Source: an uncultured virus (IMG/VR IMGVR_UViG_3300028552_000002)
Taxonomy: Duplodnaviria; Heunggongvirae; Uroviricota; Caudoviricetes
DNA length: 64,000 nt
Reading direction: 5' to 3' (one strand)
Virus record (IMG/VR): IMGVR_UViG_3300028552_000002
Below are positions 215 through 61,600 of the stretch, piece after piece (the stretch's first letter is position 1; every line of letters starts with the position of its first letter). A program made the position numbers and the translations under genes. The notes below the pieces were generated by a model that saw only the letters and a program-made list of their open reading frames with translations, was not told the origin of the DNA and did no database searches.

Positions 215-2551
215 ATGAAAAAAATCAATTGGTTAGGAAGAATTTTTTATCAGGAAGTCGAAAAAGAAAAAATTATAACGCCGAATGTTAAGAGTGTTGA
301 TCAAGATCGTAGGCCCGCTAACGAGGCAAGCTGGCGGGTTCCTTTCTCCTTAGAGTTTAAAGATATTGAACAATTTGTAGGGACAACTAACGCTGACGAA
401 ATTTTATCTGCCGCGCAAGACAGCCGGGAAATTGAAGGGCAAGCGATGGACGATTCTGACTATCAGAGCCCTATGCCGATAAATTCGAAATTCAATTCTG
501 AATATACAGTGCCAGAAGGGATTATGAGGTGGTACGCCTCTCAATCTTTTATTGGCTATCAAGCGTGTGCCATTATTGCGCAACATTGGCTAGTTAATAA
601 AGCGTGTTCAATGTCAGGTGACGACGCTGTCAGAAATGGCTGGGACATTAAAGCGGATGATGGTTCAGATCTTGATTCTAAAACATTATTCGCTTTGCGT
701 CATAAAGATATTCAGATGGAAGTAACCAAAAATCTTAAGGAATTTAATCGTTTTAAAAATATTTTCGGGATTCGAGTAACTATCTTTCAAGTAGACAGTG
801 ACGATCCTAAGTATTACGAAAAGCCTTTTAATATCGACGGCGTATCGAAAGGATCTTATAAAGGGATGTCTCAAGTCGACCCGTATTGGATGACGCCCAT
901 GTTAACAGCAGAGTCCACGGCGGATCCTTCTAAACAACATTTTTATGAACCAGATTATTGGATTATTAGCGGACAAAAATATCACAGATCCCATCTTGCT
1001 ATTGCGATTGGTGATGAAGTTGCGGATATATTAAAACCGACTTATATTTTCGGCGGAGTCTCTTTAGTTCAAGTTATTTATGAACGTTGTTATGCCGCTG
1101 AAAGAACGGCGAACGAAGCGCCTTTGCTTACCATGAATAAACGTATGACAATTTTTCATACAGATATGGAAGCTGTCATAGCAAACGAAGCTGACTTTCT
1201 AAAAAAATTAGCCAAATGGGTTTTTTATCGGGATAATAATTCTGTAAAAGTTGTTGGCGAAGGCGAAACGATGGAACAGATTGATACTAATCTTTCTGAT
1301 CTTGACGCTGTAATAATGAATCAATATCAACTTGTCGCGGCGATTGCGAAAGTTCCGGCTACTAAATTATTAGGAACTTCTCCAAAAGGATTTAATGCTA
1401 CCGGTGAATTCGAAATCGTTTCTTATCATGAAGAATTAGAATCTATTCAAAGCGGACCGTATCAATTAATGCTAGATCATCACTATATGCTAATGGCTAA
1501 ATCGATGGGTCTGGATTATGGTTTAACTGTAGTTTGGCAACCTGTCGATTCCTTAACTGCCGTTCAACGCGCAACCCTTAATTTGCAAAAAGCGCAGACT
1601 GGGCAGATTTATGTTGAACTTGGAGTTATTTCTCCTGACGACGAATTTAAACGCCTGCAAAATGATAAATTCAGCGGATACAATCAGCTTGAAGATAATT
1701 CTACTAACGAATCCAACCCGGTTGCTGGTATGACCCCTGAAAATATTGCCGCGCTACAGAAAGCCGGGGCCGAACAGGAAAAAGGGCAGGCCGCGATTTC
1801 AAAGGCCACTAATCCTCAAGAACCTCAACCGGATCAGACGCCAACAGTAGAAAAATCGGCGGCAATCGCCCCCAAAGATTCTCAGAATTCAAATATTAAT
1901 GGACAACGGAAGTCTAGTTTAAATCCTGAACTAATCAAACAGTTAGGCGATTATCTGCGTCAAATTGATGCCGCAATGGTCCCAGAAGGCCAGGATATAA
2001 ATCCCGACATAATTGGTCAAGGCCGCACCGTAAGGCCGTCAGTGACAGGGATAAAGCCCGCAGTGTCAGGCATTAACTCCGTCATAGAGGAGACCCCACG
2101 AGACAAATTGCATCGAATGAAAATCAACGGCATGATCTGTTATATCGAAAATCCTCGCGATTCGATTAGAAAAGGCGAAGACGCGGACGGGACTGAATGG
2201 GCAACAAAGATGCCGCATCATTACGGTTTTATAGATGGAACAAAAGGCGCAGATGGTGACGAACTTGACTGTTTTGTTGGGAGAAACTTACAATCTAAAA
2301 GAGTTTTTGTAGTAGATCAGTACGATGCAGAGGGAAATTTCGACGAACATAAATGTATGCTGGGATTTAATAATGCCAAAGAAGCTCAAGACGCATATGC
2401 TCAATCGTTCGGTAGAAATTGGAAAGGATTTGGCGGATTAAAAACTTTATCTGTTCCTAACTTTAAAAAATTCGCGTCAGGGAATTGTAATACTCCGTTA
2501 TGTGAAAAAAATATTGAAGAAGAAACAAATAATTCACCGATTTTAGGATAA
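215..2551 (+). CDS. portal protein (DUF1073-type) with C-terminal inorganic pyrophosphatase-like domain
   Basis: First head gene. Portal-like motifs IPATKLLGTSPKGFNATGE-type and YHRSHL. After a low-complexity linker, HYGFIDGTKGADGDELDCFVG...FDEHKCMLGF. Confidence 0.85.
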   Translation: MKKINWLGRIFYQEVEKEKIITPNVKSVDQDRRPANEASWRVPFSLEFKDIEQFVGTTNADEILSAAQDSREIEGQAMDDSDYQSPMPINSKFNSEYTVPEGIMRWYASQSFIGYQACAIIAQHWLVNKACSMSGDDAVRNGWDIKADDGSDLDSKTLFALRHKDIQMEVTKNLKEFNRFKNIFGIRVTIFQVDSDDPKYYEKPFNIDGVSKGSYKGMSQVDPYWMTPMLTAESTADPSKQHFYEPDYWIISGQKYHRSHLAIAIGDEVADILKPTYIFGGVSLVQVIYERCYAAERTANEAPLLTMNKRMTIFHTDMEAVIANEADFLKKLAKWVFYRDNNSVKVVGEGETMEQIDTNLSDLDAVIMNQYQLVAAIAKVPATKLLGTSPKGFNATGEFEIVSYHEELESIQSGPYQLMLDHHYMLMAKSMGLDYGLTVVWQPVDSLTAVQRATLNLQKAQTGQIYVELGVISPDDEFKRLQNDKFSGYNQLEDNSTNESNPVAGMTPENIAALQKAGAEQEKGQAAISKATNPQEPQPDQTPTVEKSAAIAPKDSQNSNINGQRKSSLNPELIKQLGDYLRQIDAAMVPEGQDINPDIIGQGRTVRPSVTGIKPAVSGINSVIEETPRDKLHRMKINGMICYIENPRDSIRKGEDADGTEWATKMPHHYGFIDGTKGADGDELDCFVGRNLQSKRVFVVDQYDAEGNFDEHKCMLGFNNAKEAQDAYAQSFGRNWKGFGGLKTLSVPNFKKFASGNCNTPLCEKNIEEETNNSPILG

Positions 2552-2557
2552 TCAATC

Positions 2558-3388
2558 ATGGCTTCTAAAATAAAAAGTAGAAAAGAGCCTGATCCCGTTG
2601 GAGAAGGAAAACCGATAATTCCATCTAGAGCAATTATTTCCTGGTATGACTATCAGATAGAAATGATTACTGAAGCTATGATTTCTGATTATAAACATGA
2701 ATTACATCATATTTTTTCAGATCCAAGAATCCGAAAATTTTATGGGATGGACGTTTCTGTAAGTTCTTTATTTGATCGTTTACTTAAAGAATTAAATAAT
2801 AAATGGAGTAAAGTTTTTAATGGATTCGCCGCGCAAACTTCTAAAGAATTTATTTCGAAAGTAGATTCTTCAGCAACGACAGCAACATTATACAGTTTAA
2901 AAACTGCCGGTTTGAAATTGCCAAAAGCAGAATATAATTCATCTGTAATGAATACTCTTGGCGCGGCAACTGATTTTAATCACACATTAATTACTAATAT
3001 TTCCGAAGATATTCACGAAAAAATTTATAACTCTGTAATGTTATCTTTAACGTCTCCAAATCCAGAAGAACAGGGAATGACTGGAATAGAAAACACTTTA
3101 AAATCTGTAGGAGGATTTTATAAAAAAAGAATTCAATTAATAACTCGCGATCAAACTAGTAAATTGTACAGTTCTTTAAGTGATGAAAGAATGAAAGAAA
3201 ATGGCGTTGATGAATTTCGTTGGCTTCATTCTCATGCTGGTAAAGTTCCTCGCCCTTCTCATGTTGCAAAAAATAATCAAATTTTTAAATTAGACGATCC
3301 TAGATTGTGGCAAGGGCCGAAAGCAGATCAAGGTCCGCCAGGATGGGCGATTAACTGCCGCTGCCGCAGAATTCCTGTTATTAGATAG
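2558..3388 (+). CDS. MuF / SPP1 gp7-like minor head protein
   Basis: LITRDQTSK, FRWLHS...PRPSH and PGWAINCRC motifs; directly follows the portal. Confidence 0.85.
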   Translation: MASKIKSRKEPDPVGEGKPIIPSRAIISWYDYQIEMITEAMISDYKHELHHIFSDPRIRKFYGMDVSVSSLFDRLLKELNNKWSKVFNGFAAQTSKEFISKVDSSATTATLYSLKTAGLKLPKAEYNSSVMNTLGAATDFNHTLITNISEDIHEKIYNSVMLSLTSPNPEEQGMTGIENTLKSVGGFYKKRIQLITRDQTSKLYSSLSDERMKENGVDEFRWLHSHAGKVPRPSHVAKNNQIFKLDDPRLWQGPKADQGPPGWAINCRCRRIPVIR

Positions 3389-3400
3389 GAGAAAACATAA

Positions 3401-3598
3401 ATGCCATTAATTCAAGGTAAATCAGAAAAGACTTTAGGAAAAAATATAGGCAAGGAAATTGGAGCGGGCAAAGATCCTAAACAAGCCGCCGCGATTGCGT
3501 ACTCAGTACAACGTAAGGCTAAGGACGCAAAGGACTTACCGGTCATTTTAGCCGCGCTACGTGACGTCCTTACAAAAATTCGGGAGTGTTGCCGATAA
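3401..3598 (+). CDS. small basic head-associated protein
   Basis: RBS AGGAG. MPLxxGKS...NI...KQAAAIAY pattern common in phage head modules. Confidence 0.65.
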
Positions 3599-5489: not shown

Positions 5490-6134
5490 ATGCCATTTCA
5501 AGGCGTAGTTAATCGATCTTATACTACCAGCTTTCCTGGCAGTATTCAGCAGGGCGGTCCGCATCGCGCACGCGTCGCAAGAATTTTGTCAGTAAATGAT
5601 CCGGCAGGTGTGAACACAAACCGAATTTCACGTGCCTTTGGCTGGAGCGCAGATTATGGCAACATTGGTCAGGGTTCGTCTCTTACCGTTGCCGCCGATG
5701 GGTTCCAAGTCGTTCTCGGCGGGTCACGCTTTTTCGGGATCCTTTTCAATCCGAAACATAACGCGCTATCCGGCACGACTCCAAATGGTTTAACCGGGGG
5801 ATCCTTGGGCGCGACTTTAGATTTGCCGGAAGGCACTGAAGCGGAATTTACGGATATGTGTACCGGTCTTACTGCAGAGCTGTACAATTTTACAACCGGC
5901 GCAGTAACGCCAAGTTTCGGCGATCCTATTGCATATGTTCCTAACACGATTTCGACCGGCAACAATCCCCTCGCCGTTCCTTATGGCGCTTTAGTGTCGT
6001 ATGTTGCTGGCGCGGCAGTTCCTACTGGCTTAATTGCTATTCCGAACGCCTTTGTTGTAAATTCCGTGGCGATTAGTGCTTCAGCGGTCGGCGCTTTGGT
6101 ATCCGCTTACACTATTATCCAACTGACGCAGTAA
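5490..6134 (+). CDS. capsid decoration / minor head protein
   Basis: Lies between scaffold and major capsid; FFGILFNPK motif; Gly/Ala/Thr rich. Confidence 0.7.
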
Positions 6135-11767: not shown

Positions 11768-13420
11768 ATGGGAACAAATAACTGGGGTTACGGTGAAGAA
11801 AGTTCTGGAGGTGGTGGAATGCTTACATATCCCGATACGGGCGCGGCAAACGCTATCGCAATTAATACCGCAGCAGTTGTTTTAGTTATAGGAGAAATCT
11901 TTACTGTAACTAATATCGTAGCAAATAATACCGGTGCAACGACTATCTCTATTAATAGTGCCACTCCTATCGAAATCGTAGGAATGGGAACGTCAAATCT
12001 TCAGGGAGGCGAAATTGTCACCGGATGCGATCTCGCATTATTAATAAATTCGGTTGGAACGGTAACGCTAATATCTACTAGCAACGGATCTTTGCCTGTC
12101 AAAACAGCGACACAATCTAATCAGGCTGTAACGCTCGAGCAATTAAATACAGATCAACTGTTAGATTTAAAAACTGCAAATAATCTTTCAGAAATTGCTA
12201 CGGCAGGTTCCGCTGCTCAATTAGCGGCAAGAAATAATCTCGCTATTCCTGTTCCAGCTACATTTTTACAAACGTCTAACGATCTTTCTGAAATTGCCGC
12301 GCAAGGGTCTACCGCACAGTCTAATGCTCGAACGAATTTGGGCGTCAATACTTCAAACTTTTTGCAAACGGCTAATAACTTGTCTGAAATTGCAACAGCA
12401 GGACCGACAGCGCAGACCGCAGCAAGAACAAATATCGGAGCTCAGCAATCCGGAACTTCTTTGCAGACAGCAAATAATCTTTCCGAAATTGCTACGGCTG
12501 GATCTACGGCACAATCGGCTGCGAGAACTAACTTAGGCGTAGACACTACGCAATTTTTACTCAAGACTAATAATCTTTCAGAAATCGCGACAGCGGGAAC
12601 TTCCGCTCAGTCCGCAGCTAGAACTAATATCGGTGCGCAACAGAACGGAATTTCTTTAATTACTTCTAATTTGCTTTCAGAAATCTCAGCGTTGGGATCT
12701 ACCGCCCAAGCTACTGCCCAAAGTAATTTAGGGATTAGTGGTGGTGGCAGTAGTATAGGACGATTTCTAGGGACGCTGTTATTAACCTCTTCTGGAACTT
12801 ATACTCTAGCGACTGGATGCCGACTCATCATTGCAGAAATGACCTCTGGTGGTAGCGGCAGCGGCGGAATACCTGGAACCAGTTCTACTCAATGGGGAAT
12901 CTCGGCACCTGGATTTCCAGGCTCTTGGATGATAATTCAATTTTTAGTATCACAATTATCAACCTCTGGAACAAATCAAATTTCAGTAACAATAGGTTCG
13001 GCAGGAGTAGGAACAACAACGACAGGAGGGACTTCTGGCGCTACGTTAATAGACGCTGGATCTGTTGCCGCTTGCCCAGGAGTAACAGGGGGACCTGTAG
13101 GATCAGCTATTACTACGACGGCAAGTCTTGTTTTACCTAGGGCTTATCCTTCTGTAGCGTTATCGATAATTTCTCCGGCCGTTCTAATTGCTAGTAAAAC
13201 TCAAGATCATATTCTTTCCATAAGCCCTTTGTATGGCTCTATTGCTGGAAATCCATTGCCTTATTCCAGTACTTCAGCATCCAATAGCGTTGGAATAAGT
13301 TATTTTTCGGAAGGTGTTTACGGACAAGCTGCACCTGGAGGTTTTAACGCGTCAAGTTCAGCCTTGAGATCTGGTGCCAGCGGATCTCAAGGCGCGGTAC
13401 GTTTATGGATGTATTCTTAA
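11768..13420 (+). CDS. accessory fibre protein 2 (6 NNLSEI repeats, glycine-rich C-terminal domain)
   Basis: Paralog of 10430-11752 with the same C-terminal QGAVRLWMYS. Confidence 0.75.
   Translation: MGTNNWGYGEESSGGGGMLTYPDTGAANAIAINTAAVVLVIGEIFTVTNIVANNTGATTISINSATPIEIVGMGTSNLQGGEIVTGCDLALLINSVGTVTLISTSNGSLPVKTATQSNQAVTLEQLNTDQLLDLKTANNLSEIATAGSAAQLAARNNLAIPVPATFLQTSNDLSEIAAQGSTAQSNARTNLGVNTSNFLQTANNLSEIATAGPTAQTAARTNIGAQQSGTSLQTANNLSEIATAGSTAQSAARTNLGVDTTQFLLKTNNLSEIATAGTSAQSAARTNIGAQQNGISLITSNLLSEISALGSTAQATAQSNLGISGGGSSIGRFLGTLLLTSSGTYTLATGCRLIIAEMTSGGSGSGGIPGTSSTQWGISAPGFPGSWMIIQFLVSQLSTSGTNQISVTIGSAGVGTTTTGGTSGATLIDAGSVAACPGVTGGPVGSAITTTASLVLPRAYPSVALSIISPAVLIASKTQDHILSISPLYGSIAGNPLPYSSTSASNSVGISYFSEGVYGQAAPGGFNASSSALRSGASGSQGAVRLWMYS
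12167..12730 (+). repeat. six intragenic tandem repeats, alternating 99/96-bp period
   Basis: N-x-L-S-E-I units start at 12179, 12278, 12374, 12473, 12569 and 12668. Confidence 0.9.
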
Positions 13421-22273: not shown

Positions 22274-22779
22274 TGCATATGAAAAAAATTAAATATTTTG
22301 ATATTTTTGGTGTAGAATATAAAACTGTGCAATTCAGCGCGGCGGAATCCTTTCCAATGATAGAAAGAATAGCTAAACTTAATCCATTAGATATTTTACC
22401 TTATACTAGTGTGAAATGTAAAGATGAATATATTATTTTAAATAATGAAAAATCAATTAATAAATATGTAGTGGATAAAATAAATCATGTGCCGAATTTT
22501 TTGGTATTAAGAGCTTTATTGTCAATAGTTACTGATTTTAATTTTAGTTTCCTTGCAAATTTTAAACCTGTCAAAATTCCTTCTAAATTTGCAAAAGAAT
22601 CAAAATCTGTATTTTCCAAATATATTGACATCCCGTTATCTCAATTAATACAAAATCAATTCGCAAGTCTGAAAGAACTAGAAGAATATTATTCATTAGA
22701 AGATGCTTTTATCCTATTTGATGTTATGATATCTAAAGGAATAAATGAGGCGTATTCTATTGATAACGCTGGTAAATAG
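22273..22779 (+). CDS. tail assembly chaperone-like protein
   Basis: ASLKELEEYYSLEDAF motif; start uncertain (22273 or 22279). Confidence 0.55.
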   Translation: MHMKKIKYFDIFGVEYKTVQFSAAESFPMIERIAKLNPLDILPYTSVKCKDEYIILNNEKSINKYVVDKINHVPNFLVLRALLSIVTDFNFSFLANFKPVKIPSKFAKESKSVFSKYIDIPLSQLIQNQFASLKELEEYYSLEDAFILFDVMISKGINEAYSIDNAGK

Positions 22780-28707: not shown

Positions 28708-28833
28708 TTCGTAACTCCGATGATTATATAGGATTATGCCTATATAATCAATTGTCAAGATATTGTAAGTTTTGCTATAGTTATGTATTCTAATTATAGC
28801 AGTCTATTGTTTATTGGATTTTGAATTCTGTCC

Positions 28834-28877: not shown

Positions 28878-28892
28878 AAAATCGGTTAAAAA

Positions 28893-43322: not shown

Positions 43323-44237
43323 ATGTCAAAAGAAATTGCCGTAGACAATAAAGAATCTTCTGAAGTTTCCGAAGTGAAAATCACTCTTCCGGCTGTAGCG
43401 GAAGAAATGTTGTTCAGTGAAGAAGATTCCGGTGCAGGATTTGAAGGAACGAGTGTCGAATCATTTGCAATTCCTTTCATTCAGATCCTTCAGAAAGGTA
43501 CTCCGATGGTAGACGAAGACAATCCGCATTACGTGGAAGGGGCAAAAGCCGGGCATCTTTTCAACAGTGTCACGCGTCAAATTTACAACGGCAAAGAAGG
43601 TATCGATATTATTCCGTGCGCCTTTCAACGCACCTTTATTCGTTGGGGCGGCAGGGATTCGGCCAATCCTGGATTCAAGGGCGTTTTGCAGGTAGAAGAA
43701 ATCGACCGCCTGAAACATGATCCGGCCCAGATTAAAGAAGTCGAGGGCCGCCTTTATGTCCCGAATGCTGACGGCACCGTTGATACAAAGAAAAACGATT
43801 ATTACGCCGACACACGTAGCCATTTTGTATTGATTATCGATCCGGAAAGTGGCGACTTTAGCCGCGCCTTGTTCCCGCTGACTTCGTCTCAGGTTAAAGC
43901 ATCGAAAACATTGCTAACGTTGCTCCATGAAAAAATCATCAAACGTACAGATGGCAAACGTATCAACCCGCCAACATTCGCCAATTTGGTTCACGTTAAT
44001 ACGAAACCGCTGACGGATAACAAGGGTAATTCATGGTCAGGCGTTGAATTTACTCCGACGCGTATTCTTGGCATTGAAGATCGTGACCTATATGAAGCGG
44101 CAAAACAATTCAATCGCGATGTAGTAAGCGATGCGGTCCCGGTTGATTATGCTAAAGCAGATTATAACAATGGTGGGGCCGATGATACTGAAGGGGGCGA
44201 AAGTTTCAGTAAGCCTAAAGAAGCGAAAACGTTTTAA
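43323..44237 (+). CDS. putative single-stranded DNA-binding/annealing protein
   Basis: AIPFIQILQ...P motif, acidic tail ending in Phe, replication context. Confidence 0.55.
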   Translation: MSKEIAVDNKESSEVSEVKITLPAVAEEMLFSEEDSGAGFEGTSVESFAIPFIQILQKGTPMVDEDNPHYVEGAKAGHLFNSVTRQIYNGKEGIDIIPCAFQRTFIRWGGRDSANPGFKGVLQVEEIDRLKHDPAQIKEVEGRLYVPNADGTVDTKKNDYYADTRSHFVLIIDPESGDFSRALFPLTSSQVKASKTLLTLLHEKIIKRTDGKRINPPTFANLVHVNTKPLTDNKGNSWSGVEFTPTRILGIEDRDLYEAAKQFNRDVVSDAVPVDYAKADYNNGGADDTEGGESFSKPKEAKTF

Positions 44238-44248: not shown

Positions 44249-44275
44249 CGCGGCTGTCATGGCCGCGCTTTTATT
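44249..44275 (+). terminator. putative intrinsic terminator
   Basis: CGCGGC-tgtcatg-GCCGCG followed by CTTTTATT. Confidence 0.55.
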
Positions 44276-46495: not shown

Positions 46496-48244
46496 ATGAC
46501 TAAGAAGGATAATGAAGATGGACCAATTAATATCGACAGCATTTATAACGGCATCGGGAGTATTCTTAGTGCAGACGATGATTCACGGAATGATTTCTCA
46601 CTCTCGGAGGAAAACGTTACATCCGAAAGTCAAATATCTATTGACGCAGAATCGGAGGCCCGCGCAAGAAAAAGTAGAGTATTAAAACAAAACGAGGAAA
46701 TGGAGCAAGAGCGAAAAAAAGTTTATAACGAAAAAAATATTGTTGCTAGAGCTAAACTTTTATCGTTGCTTGGGACTAACGCGATTAAGTATATTCACTA
46801 TATTAAGCCGCGCCAACAAAAAGATCGCCCTATTGAAATTTCAGTGCGACCTAATCCTGCAAGCGAATTGAATTTGATGGCCGCATTTGATGCGCTATAT
46901 GATTTCGGATCTGGCATTGTTCCGTTTCCACACATGGACACGTTTGGTCAAAGGCTTGTGGATGAATATGACGAACCTCTTTCCAATAAGAATATACGTA
47001 TCCGTGAATTAATGATGGCGCTGAATATTTGCGGCATGGATAATCCGCGTTCTATTAACGTTTTATCCGCACTAAAAACATGGGCTATTGACCATGAGTC
47101 GGATTTTTTGCAGGAGCATTTCGAAAAGACGATTCCCAAATGGGATGGTATTAGTCGATTAGAAAGCGAAATGATAAAACTTTTTAAGTGTTTTAATACC
47201 GATCTTAATCGTGAATTCGGTCGTTATTTTTGGCTTTCATTATATAATAGGATCATGAAACCAGGGTGTTTAGCTCCCCTTTCATTAGCATTGATTGGTG
47301 CGCAAAATTCCGGTAAATCTTATTTTTGCGTTCAAATCTGTAAGTATTTGATGGGTGGGGATAGATATAAGCCTGTACAGCTAGATTTAAGCGTGAATAA
47401 TTATAATAATTTTTTACGCGATATAACTGGCGCGTCGATTATAGCTAACGTCGGCGAAAAAATTGGTTTAAAACGAAGCGAAATGGACCGTGTGAAAGAA
47501 TTCGTAGCTAAAGGCGCAGACGATCTTAATTTTAAATGGGAAGGATCAATACAAAAACAACGCCAATGGATTATTGTTATGGACGGCAATAGTTACGAAG
47601 GGATACAGCGCGACGAAACCGGCAACCGCAGATTCTATCCGATGTTTGTAGGGCAGGAGTCTGATAAAGAAGGACAACCATCATGGCAACAGGATTACAA
47701 GGCTGATTTTAAGAATTTTGAGAATAGTTTGTGGCAAATTATGGCAGAGTGCCGCGCCTGGATGAAAGAAAATGATTTTTCCGGCTATATAAAAGTCGTT
47801 GATGCTGTAAGCGAACACGTTCTTAAGTTCTCAGCGAAAGAACAAAAAGAACTTCGCGGCACAATACGTGACAGCTTTATAGAAAATAATTTGCAAGAAA
47901 TTTTGTTAGGCTGTAAATGGAAAAATATTACGAAAGGTGGGAAAGTACAGGGCTGGTTTACTTCTACCTTTGAAATTTGCCAACAGTTTTTGAATAAAAA
48001 GAAAAAAGAACCTTATTATAAAGGATTAAAAATGTATATGGAGAAATTAGGGTTCGAACAAAAACAAATCGCTTATCGAGGATATTTTTTAGAGTCTGAT
48101 ATAGACGAAAGAGATTTCAAACTTTTTCTTTTAAGAAATGGCATTTCTACTGATAAGTTTGATATGGATGAATTGCTGCAATTTGAAGCAGAATGCGACG
48201 TTTTGATAGGGTCTGACCAAAGATTTACTAAGGGATCTTTTTAA
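46496..48244 (+). CDS. VirE/VapE-like replicative helicase
   Basis: PKWDG, Walker A GAQNSGKS and DETGNRRFYP motifs. Confidence 0.85.
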   Translation: MTKKDNEDGPINIDSIYNGIGSILSADDDSRNDFSLSEENVTSESQISIDAESEARARKSRVLKQNEEMEQERKKVYNEKNIVARAKLLSLLGTNAIKYIHYIKPRQQKDRPIEISVRPNPASELNLMAAFDALYDFGSGIVPFPHMDTFGQRLVDEYDEPLSNKNIRIRELMMALNICGMDNPRSINVLSALKTWAIDHESDFLQEHFEKTIPKWDGISRLESEMIKLFKCFNTDLNREFGRYFWLSLYNRIMKPGCLAPLSLALIGAQNSGKSYFCVQICKYLMGGDRYKPVQLDLSVNNYNNFLRDITGASIIANVGEKIGLKRSEMDRVKEFVAKGADDLNFKWEGSIQKQRQWIIVMDGNSYEGIQRDETGNRRFYPMFVGQESDKEGQPSWQQDYKADFKNFENSLWQIMAECRAWMKENDFSGYIKVVDAVSEHVLKFSAKEQKELRGTIRDSFIENNLQEILLGCKWKNITKGGKVQGWFTSTFEICQQFLNKKKKEPYYKGLKMYMEKLGFEQKQIAYRGYFLESDIDERDFKLFLLRNGISTDKFDMDELLQFEAECDVLIGSDQRFTKGSF

Positions 48245-50163: not shown

Positions 50164-50706
50164 ATGGCATATAATTTTAAAGATGATTACGTATTGGAGG
50201 TGGAACAATTTGCCTTACGCAACTACGCAGACGAAAACCGGGCGTCATTCGATTTGTATATCGAAAACAGGCTGCGCGGCGCGGCCCCGATCACGTGCTT
50301 AATGGTTAGCTTTGGCCTGGATTACATATCTGACGGCCATGGAAATAATCGCACTATCATGCTTGAAAGTAATCCATATTACATCGAACAATTTGAATCA
50401 CGGCTGCAAGATCTAAAATTGATGAAATTATGGAATCCAGGTATGTCGGCGCATTCTCTCGTTTCTTTAGTCAAAAGCGATGAGACAAAAGATAACGTCA
50501 GATTGAGCGCGATAAAAGAGCTGAATGTTATTTTCGGCATTACTGTTGTCGATGAGAACGGAAGGACCCGAGCTGTACGTAAATTGGACGATTTTTACAG
50601 GGAAGAGGCAGATATGGCCCAGGATGACGAAGAGTTGGACGACGAAGAGACCGAGACAGACGAAAATCCTTCACCAGCGGAACAAGGTGACGATTCAGAG
50701 GTGTAG
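50164..50706 (+). CDS. putative terminase small subunit
   Basis: DNVRLSAIKELNVIFGI motif, acidic tail, same strand as and upstream of terL; start uncertain (50098 or 50164). Confidence 0.55.
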   Translation: MAYNFKDDYVLEVEQFALRNYADENRASFDLYIENRLRGAAPITCLMVSFGLDYISDGHGNNRTIMLESNPYYIEQFESRLQDLKLMKLWNPGMSAHSLVSLVKSDETKDNVRLSAIKELNVIFGITVVDENGRTRAVRKLDDFYREEADMAQDDEELDDEETETDENPSPAEQGDDSEV

Positions 50707-50769: not shown

Positions 50770-50851
50770 GTAATCGTAATGTTAAATAAGAGTAATAGAA
50801 ATGATTGGCGCGGCAAGTTCGGTAAAAACTCTTCCTTTTTTATTTCTAATT

Positions 50852-51193
50852 TCATTTAATAAGAACGTTAAAAGATTTTTTAATGCACTCACGCAAATAT
50901 AACTCTTGTATCCGAACTTCACGACATTTGTCGTAAAATGTTGGATAAGCCAAATCATTCAGCGCGGCTATATCAAATTTATTTAACGAAACGGCAGGCA
51001 TGACAAAATCATAAACTGATTTGCCAGATCTAACACCGCCCAAGTTGCTTTTATATTGCTCATATTCTTTAGCCTCAATCTCAAATTGTGGTAGTTCTTT
51101 CGGCAGCAAAAATCTTTCAGGAATGCCAAACAAAGTTGACAAATCTTTCATGACTTGTTCGTGAAGGCGTTTAAGTTCAGAGTCGTTTATCAT
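50852..51193 (-). CDS. hypothetical protein
   Basis: GAGG RBS; overlapping operon. Confidence 0.6.
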   Translation of the reverse strand: MINDSELKRLHEQVMKDLSTLFGIPERFLLPKELPQFEIEAKEYEQYKSNLGGVRSGKSVYDFVMPAVSLNKFDIAALNDLAYPTFYDKCREVRIQELYLRECIKKSFNVLIK

Positions 51194-52866: not shown

Positions 52867-55401
52867 ATGTTATCCGATTTTAGATTCAACGCCACGACTA
52901 AGGGATTTAAGCTCAACCCGGCGCTACGCAGTACGTGGAGCAAGCCCTCAGATGTGAAAGTGATTTACGGCGGACGGGCAAGTTCAAAATGCTTAGGACT
53001 AGGTACCCAAGTCATGATGTTCAATGGCACGTTAAAAGCTGTTGAAAATATTAGAGTAGGGGATCTGGTCATGGGACCGGACAGCTTGCCACGAAAAGTT
53101 CTGGATACGACGCGCGGCAAGTCGCAACTTTATTTAGTGCATCAATCAACTGCCATGGATTACATAGTCAACGATGAACATATATTGTCGTTGAAGCGCA
53201 CCAAATCATCTTACAAAAGCAAACCTCTTGCAAATGTGGAAGGATATTCAATCCGGTATCCTGAATATGGAGACGTCGCAAATATATCAATCAAAGAATA
53301 TATGGCAAGATCTAATAAGTTTAAGACTAATTTTTTAGGGTACAAGGCTGGACTTATTTCTTTCGAAGAACAGGAAATTAAAATTGATCCTTATTATTTA
53401 GGATTGTGGTTAGGAGATGGGGATCGTGATAATGCAATCATCACAACAATGGACGAAGAAATAATTGACTACATGGAATCTTTTTCTATCAGTCAAAATA
53501 TGAAAATGTATTTCGTTGGAAATAATGGATCTAAAGCGTCTAAATATAGAATAGCTGAATATCAGAAGGGCGGAAAAAATAGAATATTAACTGCCTTAAA
53601 CGAATACGGAATTTTAACATATTTTACTAGGAAAGATAAAAAAGTAATCAGAAATAAAGTAGACAAAAGAATCCCTAAAGAATATATAAATAATTCAGAA
53701 GATATTAGATTAAAATTGTTGGCCGGATTGATAGATACTGATGGAACCTATTTAAAAAAACGTGCATCAATGGTTATTGTTTCTTCATGCGAAAACATGG
53801 CTAAAGACATAAAACTTTTAGTTGATACATTAGGGTTTAAATCTTCAATTTTAAAAAGAACGACTACAGCTCAAAATAATTTTGTTGGAACTGCATGGTC
53901 AATAACATTTTCTGGAAATCTTAACAGAATTCCAACCTTATTGCCTAGAAAAAAAGCTATAGAAAATAAAATTAATTGTAAAAATCATCTTACAACATAC
54001 ACAACCGTTTCAGATTATGGTTATGGAGAATATGCCGGTTTCTCTGTAAACGGAGATCATTTATTTTGTTTAGCAGACGGAACCGTTACGCACAATTCAC
54101 ATGATGCAGCCGGTCACGCCATCTATCTCGCCCAACGATTTACTTTACGATTTCTTTGCGCGCGGCAATTTCAAAATCGTATCAGCGAATCCGTTTATAC
54201 ATTGCTTTGCGAAAAAATAGCCGTCTCTGGATTTAAAAGTGAATTTATTATTACCAAAAATTCAATCAAACATAGATACACCGGGTCGGAATTTATCTTT
54301 TATGGTATTGCACGCAATTTGTCAGAAATAAAATCTGCCGAAGGAATCGATGTTCTCTGGCTGGAAGAAGCAAACTATTTAACAGAAATACAGTGGACGA
54401 CAATTGAACCTACCATCCGCGCGAATCATTCTGAAATATGGATAATATTTAATCCTGGCAATATAACTGATTTTGCCTATCAACGCTTCGTCGTTAATCC
54501 ACCTAAAGGCGCTATCGTTAGAAAAATAAACTGGGATGAAAATCCATTTTTATCTCCAAAAATGGTACGCGTTATTAAAGCAGCGTATGCCGAAAATAAA
54601 GAACAGGCAGATCATATTTACGGCGGAGAACCAATGACCGGCGCGGACAAATCTGTTATCAATCTTAAGTTCATACTTGCGGCGAAAGATGCCCATCTTA
54701 AAATTCCTGAATGGCCTAAAGATAGTGTGCGTAGGAGTGGCTACGACGTTGCAGATGATGGAGAAGATCTTAATGCAATCGTCGATTTTATTGATAATAT
54801 TATCTGCCATGTCGAAGAATGGAAAGGACTTGAAGATCAGCTAAATAAATCTGCGCATCGCGTTTATAATCATGCAATGCAAAATAATACGACGGTGACA
54901 TACGATGCGACAGGGCTCGGCCGCAATATGGGATCTAATTTCAAAGATTTTAATGCCGTTAATAAAGAAAAAAATATTCCTTTCAAATTAATTTATGATG
55001 CCTTCAATGCGGGGGCTGGCGTCCATCATCCAGATAAAGTTTTTCTTAAGCTGCCACATTTAAATGTTACCAATAAAGAATATTTCGAGAACGTGAAAGC
55101 GCAAGGATGGGTAGAAGTAGGGGAACGGTTCAGAAAAACATATGAACGCGTTGAGTTAGGAATTATGCACCCAATAGAAGAATTGATTTCTATTGACACA
55201 TCTAAAGTAAAAGAACCTTATCTTACGAAAATGTGTTTTGAATTATCAACGCCATTAAAAGACACGAGCAATAATGGTAAATTTATGGTCGAAACTAAAA
55301 AGGATCTGAAAAAACGCGACATCAAATCACCTAACATTGCCGATGCCGCGATTATGGCCGTGATGAAACCGGTACGTAAAGCCATGGGATTCTTTGATTA
55401 A
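52867..55401 (+). CDS. terL: terminase large subunit (intein-containing)
   Basis: YGGRASSK|SH Walker A, LCARQFQN, WLEEA, IFNP, GYDVAD and KSPNIADA motifs. Confidence 0.95.
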   Translation: MLSDFRFNATTKGFKLNPALRSTWSKPSDVKVIYGGRASSKCLGLGTQVMMFNGTLKAVENIRVGDLVMGPDSLPRKVLDTTRGKSQLYLVHQSTAMDYIVNDEHILSLKRTKSSYKSKPLANVEGYSIRYPEYGDVANISIKEYMARSNKFKTNFLGYKAGLISFEEQEIKIDPYYLGLWLGDGDRDNAIITTMDEEIIDYMESFSISQNMKMYFVGNNGSKASKYRIAEYQKGGKNRILTALNEYGILTYFTRKDKKVIRNKVDKRIPKEYINNSEDIRLKLLAGLIDTDGTYLKKRASMVIVSSCENMAKDIKLLVDTLGFKSSILKRTTTAQNNFVGTAWSITFSGNLNRIPTLLPRKKAIENKINCKNHLTTYTTVSDYGYGEYAGFSVNGDHLFCLADGTVTHNSHDAAGHAIYLAQRFTLRFLCARQFQNRISESVYTLLCEKIAVSGFKSEFIITKNSIKHRYTGSEFIFYGIARNLSEIKSAEGIDVLWLEEANYLTEIQWTTIEPTIRANHSEIWIIFNPGNITDFAYQRFVVNPPKGAIVRKINWDENPFLSPKMVRVIKAAYAENKEQADHIYGGEPMTGADKSVINLKFILAAKDAHLKIPEWPKDSVRRSGYDVADDGEDLNAIVDFIDNIICHVEEWKGLEDQLNKSAHRVYNHAMQNNTTVTYDATGLGRNMGSNFKDFNAVNKEKNIPFKLIYDAFNAGAGVHHPDKVFLKLPHLNVTNKEYFENVKAQGWVEVGERFRKTYERVELGIMHPIEELISIDTSKVKEPYLTKMCFELSTPLKDTSNNGKFMVETKKDLKKRDIKSPNIADAAIMAVMKPVRKAMGFFD
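52990..54096 (+). mobile_element. 369-aa intein with LAGLIDADG homing endonuclease
   Basis: Starts CLGLGTQV, block B VNDEHIL, YLGLWLGDG and LAGLIDTDG helices, ends GTVTHN followed by Ser. Confidence 0.95.
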
Positions 55402-58792: not shown

Positions 58793-58892
58793 AAGAAAAC
58801 CTCTTTATACGGGAGTTTATAATAACAAATGGCGCGGCGACAAACTTTGATTTAGAACAATTAATCTTTAACAAGTAAATACCGTGTTCTGT

Positions 58893-60996: not shown

Positions 60997-60999
60997 GAT

Positions 61000-61182
61000 T
61001 TACCTCAATAATACTAATTTTATATTACCAATTTCAGGATGGCTTCTTAAAACAGCGTTGCCATTACAAACCACGTCTATGAATCCTTCCCATTCATATT
61101 CTGGCTGGTCACCTAATTGATGCCCAACTTGAGCATTAGCCGGGAATTTTTTTAGCTCTTTTATTAATTGGCCGACTGTCAT
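61000..61182 (-). CDS. hypothetical protein (MTVxQLIxxL family)
   Basis: GGAGG RBS before MTVGQLIKELKKFP. Confidence 0.65.
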   Translation of the reverse strand: MTVGQLIKELKKFPANAQVGHQLGDQPEYEWEGFIDVVCNGNAVLRSHPEIGNIKLVLLR

Positions 61183-61288
61183 ACCCACCTCCATAAATTC
61201 CAAATCACAGTTATCGGTAACGCAATAGTGACAGCCGTAAACGGCAAATTATTCAGCCATCTGTCAAGGCGTCTATCGGGTTGCGGTT

Positions 61289-61600
61289 TCATTCTTCAAC
61301 TTTGAAACCGGCGGTTTTGATGGCTATTTCTAATGCCGAAATATATCTACTTTTATATAAATATCCATCTGGATTATAATCAAAGGCGTCTATATCTGGA
61401 ATCTTAACCGGCACCTGCAACCGCCGTTCAGCATCACGCAAACGGTCGATGAGTTGAATAATCATCATGCATGGATTGTCGTTAGTAATTTCATCGGTTA
61501 AAACGGCGAAATCCCACATATTTCCGTCATCGCTCGCGCCAACTTGCGCGGCTGATTCGTAGATTTCTTGAATATTTTCGTCGGTTAATTTATTCATCAA
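61289..61600 (-). CDS. Ead/Ea22-like protein
   Basis: NP..IIQLIDRLRDAE...VKIP...AIKTAGFKVE pattern. Confidence 0.6.
   Translation of the reverse strand: MMNKLTDENIQEIYESAAQVGASDDGNMWDFAVLTDEITNDNPCMMIIQLIDRLRDAERRLQVPVKIPDIDAFDYNPDGYLYKSRYISALEIAIKTAGFKVEE

What the first reader, a model, noticed from the sequence alone, without database searches (positions are those of the whole stretch)
410..61552. Genome-wide enrichment of the heptamer GCGCGGC/GCCGCGC in an AT-rich phage
Seen: I counted by hand at least 45 exact copies on both strands, e.g. 410, 1748, 2828, 2961, 3551, 6010, 8763, 9654, 11841, 12296, 20670, 22337, 24231, 24335, 24369, 30206, 30754, 31704, 31782, 33416, 37192, 38190, 41537, 46807, 50274, 53112, 54160 and 61546. 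Intergenic copies occur at 28836, 28869, 44262, 50808 and 58832. At about 19% each for G and C, a zero-order estimate gives roughly 1 copy per 64 kb (both strands). Copies fall in different reading frames, and near-matches with a CGCGG core are also common. Inference: this behaves like a selected or mutationally driven DNA signal, comparable in kind to Chi, HIP1 or uptake sequences. It could be a primase start site, a recombination or packaging cue, or a protein/modification target. I know of no description of it for this phage group.
Basis: partly seen in the sequence, partly recalled or inferred. Interest (0 to 1): 0.8.

Follow-up and report, generated by a model that had tools for sequence, protein, structure and literature searches.

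The report
Lineage-specific enriched heptamer in phages
A seven-letter DNA word, GCGCGGC, is scattered through this phage about thirty times more often than its base composition predicts, and it is also enriched in related phages but not in unrelated phages of the same hosts or in sampled bacteria, so the phage lineage itself seems to keep it as a signal whose function is still unknown.

Summary
There are 46 exact copies (26 +, 20 -), against 1.4 expected at zero order and 4.8 from dinucleotide shuffles. The word ranks 1st of 8,192 heptamers. It is sharp: its 21 one-letter neighbours together sit at expectation. It is enriched in all six frame/orientation classes and in noncoding DNA, and it shows no significant strand or spacing pattern. 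About two thirds of copies sit in Ala-Ala codons.

The window is an AT-rich (39% GC) relative of PB1-like myoviruses. The same word, or its sister GCCGCGA, is the top heptamer in relatives at 38-58% GC on different hosts. It is depleted in unrelated phages of those hosts and unremarkable in 401 sampled Gammaproteobacteria. Copy number stays at about 50-100 per genome while the compositional expectation changes about 20-fold, and sites turn over.

Best reading (about 45%): a lineage-intrinsic recognition word kept by selection. The leading but untested candidate is a signal for the clade's conserved RepB'-type primase or D5-type primase-helicase. The main rival is a clade-specific mutational or repair drive.

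The parts
410..416 (-). motif copy; sense GCC-GCG-C (S-A-A-Q) in portal gene 215-2551
1748..1754 (-). motif copy; GCC-GCG-C (I-A-A-L) in portal gene
   Evidence: conserved in L002
2828..2834 (-). motif copy; GCC-GCG-C (F-A-A-Q) in 2558-3388
2961..2967 (+). motif copy; xGC-GCG-GCx (L-G-A-A-T) in 2558-3388
3551..3557 (-). motif copy; in small ORF 3412-3672 (-), S-A-A register
6010..6016 (+). motif copy; G-A-A register in 5475-6134
   Evidence: conserved in L002 and L003
8763..8769 (-). motif copy; N-A-A-Q in 8703-9269
   Evidence: conserved in L003 and L019
9654..9660 (+). motif copy; T-G-A-A-G in 9269-10090
11841..11847 (+). motif copy; T-G-A-A-N in 11768-13420
   Evidence: conserved in L003
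12296..12302 (-). motif copy; I-A-A-Q in 11768-13420
20670..20676 (-). motif copy; A-A-A-Q in 19179-21386
22337..22343 (+). motif copy; F-S-A-A-E in 22258-22779
22918..22924 (+). motif copy; coding in 22788-23531 (S-A-A register by my reading of the frame)
23289..23295 (-). motif copy; within 22788-23531 (+), GCC-GCG-C register by my reading of the frame
24231..24237 (+). motif copy; T-G-A-A-G in baseplate gene 23426-24799
24335..24341 (-). motif copy; Y-A-A-H in 23426-24799; inverted partner of 24369, 34 bp away
24369..24375 (+). motif copy; Y-G-A-A-G in 23426-24799
28831..28878 (.). perfect 10-bp inverted repeat AGGCGCGGCC ..28 nt.. GGCCGCGCCT holding motif copies 28836(+) and 28869(-), in the divergent intergenic region between the structural/lysis block and the minus-strand replication block
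   Evidence: sequence read directly
30206..30212 (+). motif copy; non-Ala register (L-L-P-R-I) in ligase gene 29690-30631 (-)
30754..30760 (+). motif copy; in the 207-nt gap between ligase and MazG-like genes, covered only by a doubtful 73-aa ORF
31704..31710 (+). motif copy; L-A-A-Q in 31426-32019 (-)
   Evidence: conserved in L100
31782..31788 (+). motif copy; T-A-A-Q in 31426-32019 (-)
   Evidence: conserved in L100
31977..31983 (+). motif copy; K-A-A-P in 31426-32019 (-)
33416..33422 (-). motif copy; non-Ala register (F-W-R-G-D) inside the RepB-type primase gene
   Evidence: conserved in L100
35679..35685 (-). motif copy; L-A-A-L in 35487-36485
36865..36871 (-). motif copy; Y-A-A-L in 36592-36918
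37192..37198 (+). motif copy; P-G-A-A-T in 36999-37268
38190..38196 (+). motif copy; P-G-A-A-I in DnaE-type polymerase gene
   Evidence: conserved in L100
39530..39536 (+). motif copy; L-A-R-P-G in polymerase gene
   Evidence: conserved in L100 and L101
40232..40238 (-). motif copy; N-A-A-H in polymerase gene
41537..41543 (+). motif copy; T-A-R-R-I in SNF2 helicase gene
   Evidence: conserved in L100
42170..42176 (-). motif copy; M-A-A-L in SNF2 helicase gene
43861..43867 (-). motif copy; F-S-R-A-L in 43323-44237
44249..44268 (+). terminator-like hairpin CGCGGC-TGTCATG-GCCGCG followed by CTTTTATTAC; both stem arms are the hexamer core; holds motif copy 44262(-)
   Evidence: copy conserved in L101
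45752..45758 (-). motif copy; G-T-P-R-L in Dam-family methyltransferase gene
   Evidence: conserved in L101
46807..46813 (-). motif copy; I-K-P-R-Q in D5/VapE-type primase-helicase gene
47751..47757 (-). motif copy; E-C-R-A-W in D5/VapE-type primase-helicase gene
50274..50285 (+). two overlapping motif copies (50274 and 50279), GCGCGGCGCGGC, in 50098-50706
50808..50814 (+). motif copy; noncoding, between convergent genes
50962..50968 (+). motif copy; I-A-A-L in 50852-51193 (-)
53112..53118 (+). motif copy; T-T-R-G-K in large terminase gene
54160..54166 (+). motif copy; C-A-R-Q-F in large terminase gene
58832..58838 (+). motif copy; noncoding, between minus-strand genes
61546..61552 (+). motif copy; S-A-A-Q in 61289-61600 (-)
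32624..33685 (-). candidate reader (inferred only): RepB'-family archaeo-eukaryotic-type primase
   Evidence: PF16793 E 1.6e-36; phrog_4861 E 1.1e-174; 59-66% identical in 5 of 5 complete clade genomes; no match in 5 of 5 outgroup fragments
46496..48244 (+). candidate reader (inferred only): D5/VapE-type primase-helicase
   Evidence: PF05272; phrog_4630; 37-47% identical in 5 of 5 clade genomes; no match in 5 of 5 outgroup fragments

Best explanation
KCGCGGC (GCGCGGC, with TCGCGGC as a weaker sister form; core GCCGCG followed by C or A) is a DNA-level word that belongs to this phage lineage and not to its hosts. A directional force keeps it at roughly one copy per kilobase, in either orientation and anywhere in the genome. 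New copies keep arising, mostly by choosing GCC-GCG-C or xGC-GCG-GCx for Ala-Ala, while old ones are lost.

I think the force is most likely selection for the number of sites recognised by a conserved phage-encoded DNA-handling protein. The leading candidate is a template or loading signal for the clade's RepB'-type primase and/or D5-type primase-helicase. The spacing would suit repeated priming of discontinuous synthesis on whichever strand is lagging: about 1 site per 2.5-3.2 kb on each strand.

Shown: the enrichment, its sharpness, its independence of coding frame and of strand, its restriction to the clade, its turnover and its near-constant copy number.

Inferred: that selection and not mutation bias maintains it, and that a protein reads it.

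Speculative: which protein reads it.
For: (1) Real and DNA-level. There are 46 copies against 4.84 +/- 2.18. In coding sequence, 43 against 6.5 +/- 2.4 under synonymous shuffles and 10.2 with context kept. All six frame/orientation classes are enriched 4-11-fold, and 4 copies lie in 4,017 nt of noncoding DNA.

(2) Word-specific. It ranks 1st of 8,192 heptamers, z about 15. The exact word is 6.7x its expectation, while its 21 neighbours sum to 99 against 82.9, and several A/T neighbours are depleted (GCGCAGC 1 vs 6.2, GCGCTGC 2 vs 5.9, GAGCGGC 1 vs 5.2). Of Ala-Ala pairs followed by a C-initial codon, 17 of 37 are GCC-GCG, against 8 of 130 otherwise.

(3) Clade-intrinsic. It is rank 1 in L100, L101, the XcP1-like L005, L006 and Luteibacter phage Pluto, and GCCGCGA is rank 1 in JG024. 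It ranks 7,740 and 7,546 in the unrelated same-host phages LUZ24 and Xp10 (counts 0 in 45 kb and 3 in 44 kb). In 401 Gammaproteobacteria the ratio to the reversed word is mostly 0.8-1.5. Sampled AT-rich genomes have 0-1 copies in 20-75 kb.

(4) Copy-number homeostasis. There are 50-99 copies in nine complete clade genomes at 48-59% GC, and 46 in 64 kb at 39% GC, although the zero-order expectation falls from about 10-28 (scaled) to 1.4.

(5) Turnover with maintained density. Only 1 of 74 aligned copies is conserved against distant clade members. Against close relatives there are 14 shared, 18 window-only and 19 relative-only copies, and all five lineages hold 0.72-0.96 per kb.

(6) Not a by-product of restriction avoidance: constrained shuffles give 5.4 +/- 1.4.

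(7) Candidate readers co-occur with the word. The RepB-type primase is in 5 of 5 and the D5-type protein in 5 of 5 complete clade genomes, and the primase, at 59-66% identity, is better conserved than the polymerase at 54-56%. Outgroup records that share the polymerase, exonuclease and SNF2 genes have 0-3 copies and neither primase gene.

(8) Intergenic copies form inverted pairs: a 10-bp perfect repeat at 28831-28878 and the stem of a terminator-like hairpin at 44249-44267.
Against: No protein has been shown to bind the word, and no tool here can test that.

Known primases read 3-5 nt, and the type RepB' enzyme reads structured ssi sites, so a 7-nt dispersed site would be unprecedented (my knowledge, not tested).

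The primase gene is also present in clade members with weak enrichment (L017: z 2.2, rank 278; G404 and G410: ratios 1.7 and 1.4). Presence of the gene therefore does not scale with enrichment.

The outgroup records are fragments (45-89% complete), so their missing genes may simply be missing sequence.

Excess conservation at synonymous sites is modest: 11 of 21 (52%) against 31% in controls, roughly p 0.03 by my arithmetic, and L100 and L101 are not independent.

There is no orientation switch along the genome (26 +, 20 -) and spacing is random (CV 1.1). That fits an orientation-free signal but gives no positive pointer to replication.

Other G/C-only words, such as (GGC)n with CCGCCGCC at 15 vs 1.6, are also enriched in the AT-rich subclade, so part of the effect is a broader clustering of G/C codons.

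Gene calls are ORF-based and not from a gene finder.
Confidence: 0.45

Rival explanations
1. A neutral, clade-specific mutational or repair drive. The lineage's own replication or recombination enzymes (error spectrum, heteroduplex repair, or a very-short-patch-like correction) would convert near-words into GCCGCGC faster than it decays, with no function for the word itself.
For: The pattern is strand-symmetric, frame-independent and present in noncoding DNA. One-letter neighbours such as GCGCAGC, GCGCTGC and GAGCGGC are depleted while the exact word is enriched. Sites turn over quickly, and excess conservation is only modest. The pattern is clade-specific, as an enzyme-borne bias would be. 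G/C at four-fold sites rises from 29% to 55% with flanking G/C.
Against: Outgroup phages with homologous DnaE-type polymerase and exonuclease (35-41% identity) have 0-3 copies. No Vsr-like or cytosine-methyltransferase gene was found. No known mutational process yields one 7-mer while leaving 17 of its 21 neighbours at or below twice their expectation. Copy number is nearly constant across a 20-point GC range, whereas a mutation-balance equilibrium should fall with GC.
Confidence: 0.25
2. A composite by-product: Ala-Ala and Gly-Ala-Ala coding, context-dependent codon choice and avoidance of restriction-type palindromes would funnel G/C-rich codon pairs into the few permitted words.
For: 30 of 43 coding copies are in two Ala-Ala registers. 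Many 6-bp palindromes are nearly absent, including the neighbours CCGCGG (1 site) and GCGCGC (3 sites), and CCGCGG is missing clade-wide. GGCGCGGC is the only non-palindromic member of G-S-CGCG-S-C, and it alone is common: 23 against 0 and 0. The 7-mer count is predicted by its 6-mers, 39.4 against 46.
Against: Shuffles that keep protein sequence and codon usage give 6.5, keeping next-codon context gives about 10, and also forcing 27 avoided words down to real levels gives 5.4 (max 9), against 43 observed. The non-Ala frames and noncoding DNA are enriched too. Within the same A-A-C context and at the same G/C content, GCC-GCG occurs 17 times against 2-3 for GCG-GCG and GCC-GCC. Unrelated phages with the same GC and hosts lack the word.
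Confidence: 0.1
3. A host-derived signal. The word would be the host's Chi-like, uptake-like or methylation/repair-favoured sequence, and the phage would mirror it or exploit it, for example for protection from RecBCD/AddAB.
For: Chi and uptake sequences are the classic dispersed over-represented words. Both orientations would suit a genome whose ends can lie anywhere. Inverted pairs in hairpins recall uptake sequences in terminators. The host of this phage is unknown, so it could not be examined.
Against: The same word is top-ranked in relatives infecting Xanthomonas, Luteibacter and (sister form) Pseudomonas, yet it is depleted in the unrelated phages Xp10 and LUZ24 of the same hosts. In 401 Gammaproteobacteria the motif-to-control ratio is mostly 0.8-1.5, at most about 3.6, and never at comparable density. 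AT-rich outliers checked have 0-1 copies in 20-75 kb. There is no strand bias.
Confidence: 0.07
4. A relic of a GC-rich ancestor. The AT-rich subclade would have recently drifted down in GC, and the word would be a slowly decaying leftover.
For: All known relatives outside the subclade are 48-59% GC and rich in the word. G/C-only words in general are about 4x over expectation in the window (359 against about 91).
Against: Positions are not shared with GC-rich relatives (1 of 74). Enrichment over the codon-shuffle null is higher in the AT-rich subclade (6.7-7.6x) than in GC-rich members (2-4.4x). All five AT-rich lineages keep the same density although only 14 of 32 aligned copies are shared. 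By my arithmetic, pure loss would need about 76 ancestral copies where each lineage now has about 32, which is denser than any extant member.
Confidence: 0.05

Closest known systems
Chi sites (RecBCD/AddAB crossover hotspot instigators, e.g. GCTGGTGG in E. coli)
   Same: A short (5-8 nt), asymmetric, G-rich word dispersed through coding DNA at about one per few kb. It is accommodated by codon-pair choice, and it is over-represented relative to composition.
   Different: Chi is defined by the host enzyme, is enriched in the host chromosome and is co-oriented with replication. Here the word follows the phage clade across hosts, is not enriched in sampled bacteria or in unrelated phages of the same hosts, and shows no strand bias.
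DNA uptake sequences (USS of Pasteurellaceae, DUS of Neisseriaceae)
   Same: Orientation-independent and about 1 per kb. Mostly found inside genes in favoured reading frames, with signs of bending the proteome (Ala-Ala observed/expected 1.44). Occasional inverted pairs form hairpins. Sites turn over while density is kept.
   Different: Uptake sequences are 9-12 nt cores with flanks, are properties of competent bacteria, and are not known to be carried preferentially by lytic phages. This is a 7-mer with almost no flank information, and it is specific to a phage lineage.
HIP1 (GCGATCGC) of cyanobacteria
   Same: Extreme, sharply word-specific enrichment at synonymous sites, with an unresolved cause (selection or methylase/repair drive).
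   Different: HIP1 is a palindrome linked to a cognate methyltransferase in a cellular lineage. This word is asymmetric, its palindromic relatives are avoided, and no cytosine methyltransferase is encoded.
Primase recognition sites of phages (T7 5'-GTC-3' with preferred pentamers; T4 GTT/GCT) and ssi sites of RSF1010 RepB'
   Same: Phage-encoded readers and sites needed repeatedly on both strands. The per-strand spacing here (2.5-3.2 kb) is of Okazaki-fragment order. A RepB'-family primase is one of the best-conserved clade proteins.
   Different: Known primase sites are 3-5 nt and, to my knowledge, are not reported as the top over-represented word of their genomes. RepB' reads about 40-nt hairpin sites at one origin. 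Nothing here tests priming.
Stoperators of Cluster A mycobacteriophages (13-bp repressor sites, 24-36 per genome)
   Same: A phage-lineage-intrinsic asymmetric word, present in tens of dispersed copies and read by a phage protein.
   Different: Stoperators lie in short intergenic gaps in one orientation relative to transcription. Here about 40 of 46 copies are inside genes, in both orientations.

Membership tests
Chi-like hotspot | Word is over-represented in the host chromosome | tested here: inconclusive
   The host is unknown. In 401 sampled Gammaproteobacteria the ratio to the reversed word is mostly 0.8-1.5 and at most about 3.6 in word-poor genomes. Three AT-rich outliers have 0-1 copies in 20-75 kb.
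Chi-like hotspot | Strand or orientation bias tied to the direction of replication or to DNA ends | tested here: not met
   26 + against 20 -. Sense-strand forms are 22 GCCGCGC against 21 GCGCGGC. No significant run structure, by my run count.
Chi-like hotspot | Specific to the host's RecBCD/AddAB, so shared by unrelated phages or DNA of the same host and not by relatives on other hosts | tested here: not met
   Rank 1 in relatives on Xanthomonas-type and Luteibacter hosts. Rank 7,546 and 7,740 in the unrelated phages Xp10 and LUZ24 on the same hosts.
DNA uptake sequence | Dispersed, orientation-independent, about 1 per kb, in genes and as inverted pairs in hairpins | tested here: met
   0.72 per kb, both strands. 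Inverted pair at 28831-28878 and hairpin at 44249-44267.
DNA uptake sequence | Belongs to a naturally competent bacterial lineage whose genome is saturated with it | tested here: not met
   Not seen in the bacteria searched. The word follows a lytic phage clade.
HIP1-type iterated palindrome | Palindromic word with a cognate methyltransferase | tested here: not met
   The word is asymmetric. GGCGCGCC and GCCGCGGC occur 0 times. The only methyltransferase is Dam-family N6-adenine.
By-product of coding plus restriction avoidance | Enrichment vanishes under synonymous shuffles that keep protein, codon usage, junction context and avoided words | tested here: not met
   6.5, 8.0, 10.2, 9.6 and 5.4 expected against 43 observed.
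Primase recognition/loading site | Primase initiates or binds preferentially at the word | not testable with these tools
   Needs primase assays or 5'-end mapping. The available public runs are assembled contigs only.
Primase recognition/loading site | Word and primase gene co-occur phylogenetically | tested here: inconclusive
   The RepB-type primase is in 5 of 5 complete clade genomes and in 0 of 5 motif-free outgroup records. However, the outgroup records are 45-89% complete, and enrichment strength varies among genomes that carry the primase.
Stoperator-like repressor sites | Intergenic position and a single orientation relative to transcription | tested here: not met
   About 40 of 46 copies are in coding sequence, in both orientations.

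The most novel reading that the evidence does not exclude
The genomes of a whole myovirus lineage (PB1-like phages and their AT-rich peat relatives) would be shaped by their own replication machinery's recognition word. A RepB'-family primase or D5-type primase-helicase would need KCGCGGC to start or load. Selection would therefore hold about 50-100 copies per genome, at Okazaki-fragment spacing on each strand, whatever the base composition. This would bend codon-pair choice and even Ala-Ala content. It would be the first virus-intrinsic analogue of Chi or uptake sequences, and the first primase with a 6-7-nt dispersed site.
Probability: 0.17. Interest if true: 0.85.

Novelty: new variant of a known kind. 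Interest (0 to 1): 0.72.

Why it matters
Dispersed over-represented words such as Chi, uptake sequences, KOPS and HIP1 have each led to a piece of DNA-handling machinery. All the well-known ones belong to cells. Here the word follows a phage lineage across hosts and across a 20-point range of GC content, at nearly constant copy number.

If a phage protein reads it, this opens a directly testable question in cultivable, well-studied phages (JG024/PB1, XcP1, Pluto): what does a lytic phage need about 1 site per kb for? It would also matter for synthetic recoding of therapeutic Pbunaviruses, where synonymous changes could silently remove the sites.

If instead it is a mutational drive, it would be an unusually sharp sequence-specific one.

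In both cases the word is a simple marker for recognising this lineage in metagenomes, and a caution for host prediction from k-mers.

Tried and rejected
(1) No whole genome is held for the window. The source contig L133 could not be searched as a record.

(2) Megablast of the polymerase gene against the phage collection found nothing. Protein search was needed.

(3) The genome-contig scan with the capsid protein gave only 43-54% prophage-like relatives, which gave no host.

(4) Longer or bipartite motif. The flanks carry little information. C at -12 (21 of 46) recurs in relatives (13 of 32; 90 of 255), but -12 is in codon phase with the word, so I treat it as mostly codon periodicity.

(5) Regular spacing or position in genes: gaps are exponential-like (CV 1.1) and relative position is uniform.

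(6) G/C patchiness: third-position G/C autocorrelation is about 0.01-0.04.

(7) GCWGC avoidance as the cause: GCAGC/GCTGC is at 85 against 85.7.

(8) A reader protein: Pfam and PHROGs scans of 87 and 48 ORFs gave no cytosine methyltransferase, Vsr-like or site-specific nuclease candidate.

(9) RSF1010 origin comparison: the accession was not in the plasmid collection. Protein search of plasmids with the primase gave one distant Legionella plasmid hit only.

(10) Public reads: 20 peat-metagenome runs hold the stretch, but all are kept as contigs with word share 1.00, so they show no ends and no rare variants.

(11) Earlier notes of this scan: none for this genome.

(12) Literature: the word appears in 6 unrelated papers only. 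The PB1-like papers read in passages (PMC3008698, PMC10914365) do not mention it. Ceyssens et al. 2009 is not in the searchable library.

Full report
**What the window is.** The 64-kb window is almost a whole phage genome. A 68,256-bp metagenome contig is 100% identical over the part fetched (L133). It encodes portal, protease, major capsid, tail sheath and baseplate genes. It also encodes its own replication module: DnaE-type polymerase, epsilon-like exonuclease, SNF2 and Dda-like helicases, ATP ligase, a RepB'-family primase and a D5/VapE-type primase-helicase. The polymerase is 54-56% identical to those of Luteibacter phage Pluto, Serratia phage MyoSmar, Pseudomonas phage JG024 (Pbunavirus) and Xanthomonas phages Carpasina and XcP1. 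Those relatives are 48-59% GC. The window is 39.2% GC. Closer, equally AT-rich relatives exist only as fragments: L002 and L003 (capsid about 80% identical) and L100 and L101 (polymerase 82-88%).

GCGCGGC/GCCGCGC occurs 46 times (26 +, 20 -). Expectations are 1.42 at zero order and 4.84 +/- 2.18 from dinucleotide-preserving shuffles, with 0 of 100 shuffles reaching 46. The maximal-order Markov expectation from its own 6-mers is 39.4. That only shows that the sub-words inherit the excess: 46 of the 62 GCGCGG and 46 of the 75 CGCGGC are inside the heptamer.

Two thirds of the coding copies encode Ala-Ala in two registers that are reverse complements of each other. These are GCC-GCG-C (16 or 17 copies, mostly A-A-Q/L/H/P) and xGC-GCG-GCx (12 or 13 copies, mostly G-A-A or S-A-A). 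That makes 28 of 40 with the stricter ORF set and 30 of 43 with the more inclusive one. Coding alone does not explain the count.
- Shuffling synonymous codons within each gene gives 6.5 +/- 2.4 (max 15 in 500 shuffles) against 43 observed.
- Pooled shuffles that keep the amino acid plus the next base, the next two bases, or the next amino acid give 8.0, 10.2 and 9.6.
- All six frame/orientation classes exceed their shuffle means: 17 vs 2.1, 13 vs 2.2, 4 vs 0.8, 4 vs 0.4, 3 vs 0.3 and 2 vs 0.5.
- Four copies lie in only 4,017 nt of noncoding DNA of 35.7% GC. By my arithmetic the zero-order expectation there is about 0.05.

Under the same null, the word is the first of all 8,192 strand-symmetrised heptamers (z 14.8-15.2). 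The next words are overlapping pieces of TTGCCGCGCC or belong to a second (GGC)n/(GCC)n family (CCGCCGCC 15 vs 1.6).

**The word is sharp.** The exact word occurs 46 times. Twenty of its 21 one-letter variants occur 0-10 times, and TCGCGGC occurs 25 times, although A and T are the commoner bases. Against codon shuffles the exact word is 6.7x. The 21 variants together are 99 against 82.9. Several A/T 'synonymous' neighbours are depleted: GCGCAGC 1 vs 6.2, GCGCTGC 2 vs 5.9, GAGCGGC 1 vs 5.2. Read from the other strand, the core GCCGCG is followed by C 46 times, A 25, T 3 and G 1.

Codon choice depends on a base four positions downstream. Of 37 Ala-Ala pairs followed by a C-initial codon, 17 are GCC-GCG, against 8 of 130 otherwise. 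Of 12 Gly-Ala-Ala, 9 begin GGC-GCG.

The flanks carry little information: G at -1 in 50% and A at +1 and +2 in about 50% in the window, and almost nothing in GC-rich relatives. Third-position G/C is not patchy (autocorrelation 0.01-0.04) but depends on neighbours (29% to 55%). Spacing is exponential-like (CV 1.1) and position within genes is uniform.

**Restriction avoidance is strong but is not the cause.** Many 6-bp palindromes are nearly absent. AGGCCT, CAGCTG, GCCGGC and GTGCAC occur 0 times. CCGCGG has 1 site where the Markov model expects about 17. Asymmetric words such as GAGATG (1 vs 26) are also avoided. GGCGCGGC is the only non-palindromic member of G-S-CGCG-S-C, and it alone is common: 23 against 0 and 0. 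I therefore forced synonymous shuffles to carry no more of 27 avoided words than the real genes do. They still gave only 5.4 +/- 1.4 copies, with a maximum of 9 in 25 runs.

**The word belongs to the phage lineage, not to hosts.** Under the codon-shuffle null it ranks 1st of 8,192 in L100, L101, the XcP1-like L005, L006 and Pluto. In JG024 the sister form GCCGCGA ranks 1st and GCCGCGC 16th. In the MyoSmar-sized L017 it ranks 278th.

Unrelated phages of the same hosts at the same GC are depleted. Xp10 (Xanthomonas, 52% GC) has 3 copies in 44 kb, rank 7,546. LUZ24 (P. aeruginosa, 52% GC) has 0 in 45 kb, rank 7,740. AT-rich phiKZ has 1 in 50 kb. More distant AT-rich relatives by capsid (L032-L070) have 0 copies, with one exception holding a single copy, and hardly any G/C-only heptamers.

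In 401 Gammaproteobacteria genomes drawn evenly from the class, the ratio of the word to its reversed control is mostly 0.8-1.5. The window's ratio is 46 to 13. The highest bacterial ratios (2.5-3.6) are in word-poor genomes. This tally includes four genomes flagged unpublished (G040, G297, G142, G309), none used individually. Three AT-rich outliers that I sampled hold 0-1 copies in 20-75 kb. The true host is unknown and may lie outside the sample.

**Copy number is held and positions are not.** Nine complete clade genomes (61.8-73.2 kb, 48-59% GC) carry 50, 52, 59, 60, 82, 83, 93, 98 and 99 copies (0.71-1.60 per kb), against 13-68 of the reversed control. The window carries 0.72 per kb, and the four AT-rich fragments carry 0.79-0.96 per kb. 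Meanwhile the zero-order expectation changes from about 10-28 per genome (scaled) to 1.4.

Against distant clade members, only 1 of 74 aligned copies is at the same place. Against the close relatives, 14 aligned copies are shared, 18 are window-only and 19 are relative-only. Where the amino acids are conserved, 11 of 21 motif windows are identical. The controls are 36 of 114 other G/C-only heptamers and 19 of 62 non-motif Ala-Ala windows, both 31%. The excess is modest, roughly p 0.03 by my arithmetic, and L100 and L101 are not independent. If copies were only being lost, the common ancestor would have needed about 76 copies where each lineage now has about 32, which is denser than any living member. 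Copies must therefore be gained at a rate far above the neutral one.

**What it most likely is.** The pattern has these features:
- a sharp word;
- either orientation;
- any frame, plus noncoding DNA;
- lineage-bound across hosts;
- depleted neighbours;
- turnover with constant number.

This is the signature of a dispersed recognition word kept by a directional force. I favour selection on the number of sites read by a conserved phage protein (about 0.45).

No reader is evident. The only methyltransferase is a Dam-family adenine enzyme, and the word has no A/T. No Vsr-like or site-specific nuclease was recognised.

The most suggestive candidates are the two primase-type proteins. The RepB'-family primase is present at 59-66% identity in 5 of 5 complete clade genomes tested, which is better conserved than the polymerase. 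The D5-type protein is present at 37-47% in 5 of 5. Outgroup phages that share the polymerase, exonuclease, SNF2 and Pam3-gp33/34-like genes hold 0-3 copies and show neither primase gene. Those records are only 45-89% complete, however, and enrichment varies among primase-bearing genomes.

One site per 2.5-3.2 kb on each strand is of Okazaki-fragment order. The two copies in a perfect 10-bp inverted repeat at 28831-28878 sit at the divergent junction next to the replication block and could mark an origin. All of this is inference. The primase reading by itself I put near 0.17.

**Rivals.**
- A clade-specific mutational or repair drive (0.25) fits the depleted neighbours and the fast turnover. 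It does not fit the motif-free outgroup that carries a homologous polymerase, the sharpness of the word, or the constancy of copy number.
- The coding-plus-avoidance by-product (0.10) failed every shuffle test.
- A host Chi-like or uptake-like signal (0.07) conflicts with the cross-host, same-clade distribution and with the lack of strand bias.
- A relic of GC-rich ancestry (0.05) conflicts with the lack of shared positions and with the higher enrichment factor in the AT-rich subclade.

**What is known.** Full-text searches found the string only in six unrelated papers. They found no report of an over-represented word in PB1-like phages. The JG024 paper (passages read) reports only sigma-70-like promoters, terminators and AT-rich intergenic boxes. 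The 14-1 transcriptome paper (passages read) reports a CTGGG promoter core. Ceyssens et al. 2009 could not be searched. Supplements were not consulted. Statements about Chi, uptake sequences, HIP1, stoperators and primase site lengths rest on my own knowledge.

**Limits.** Gene calls are longest-ORF based. Nulls are shuffles, not fitted evolutionary models. The host is unknown. The relatives are phylogenetically non-independent. Public runs holding the phage (20 peat-metagenome runs, probably one campaign and possibly its source) are kept as contigs and could show neither ends nor variants.

Noticed in passing
window 52867-55401 (+): The large terminase is 844 aa. It carries a Hint domain plus LAGLIDADG homing-endonuclease domains (residues about 42-350) ahead of the Terminase_3 domain, so it is probably an intein-containing TerL. 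JG024's TerL gene is only about 1.4 kb.
   Followed up: no
window 215-2551 (+): The portal protein (Phage_portal_3) carries a C-terminal InPase (inorganic pyrophosphatase-like, PF18823) domain, E 1.4e-45.
   Followed up: no
whole window: Restriction-type words are very strongly avoided. AGGCCT, CAGCTG, GCCGGC and GTGCAC are absent. CTGCAG, TGGCCA, CCGCGG, GGATCC, GGCGCC, GCGCGC and CGATCG are far below expectation. The asymmetric words GAGATG (1 vs 26), CATCAG (10 vs 37) and GAGCAG (4 vs 20) are also avoided. These are likely footprints of the unknown host's restriction systems. CCGCGG is nearly absent across the whole clade, but Xp10 has 9.
   Followed up: partly
whole window; also L100, L101: A second enriched word family, (GGC)n/(GCC)n: GGCGGCG 32, CCGCCGCC 15 vs 1.6 by codon shuffle, codon pairs GGC-GGC 25 vs 8.3 and GGC-GGA 30 vs 11.9. 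It is about 20x zero-order in the AT-rich subclade and only 2-5x in GC-rich relatives and in Xp10.
   Followed up: partly
position -12 relative to each motif copy: C in 21 of 46 copies and G in 1 of 46. It recurs in close relatives (13 of 32) and in the GC-rich clade (90 of 255 against a 27% background). It is in codon phase with the word, so it is probably mostly codon periodicity. A weak second contact one helical turn away is not excluded.
   Followed up: partly
window 52619-52634 and 58532-58547: The same 16-nt hairpin-forming sequence, followed by TCTCTT, occurs twice about 5.9 kb apart in the minus-strand early-gene regions. It may be a repeated regulatory element.
   Followed up: no
window 45324-45878 (+): A Dam-family N6-adenine methyltransferase (PF05869, E 2.3e-39). 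GATC is only mildly under-represented (0.90 of the Markov expectation).
   Followed up: no
window 15778-16236 / 17154-17651 and 17651-18178 / 18189-18755: Two pairs of paralogous tail/baseplate genes (two E217_Gp32-like and two Gp38_E217-like).
   Followed up: no
window proteome: Ala-Ala and Gly-Gly dipeptides are more over-represented (observed/expected 1.44 and 1.34) than in 11 comparison phage loci (0.98-1.33 and 0.85-1.14). The DNA words may be bending protein sequence.
   Followed up: partly
G409 (record of L018): This is the one clade genome with a marked strand imbalance of the word: 57 forward against 26 reverse. The other eight are near balance.
   Followed up: no
window 58893-59075 (-): A 60-aa ORF matches only the C-terminal half of Q-like antiterminators (PF06530, positions 57-114 of 118).
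   Followed up: no
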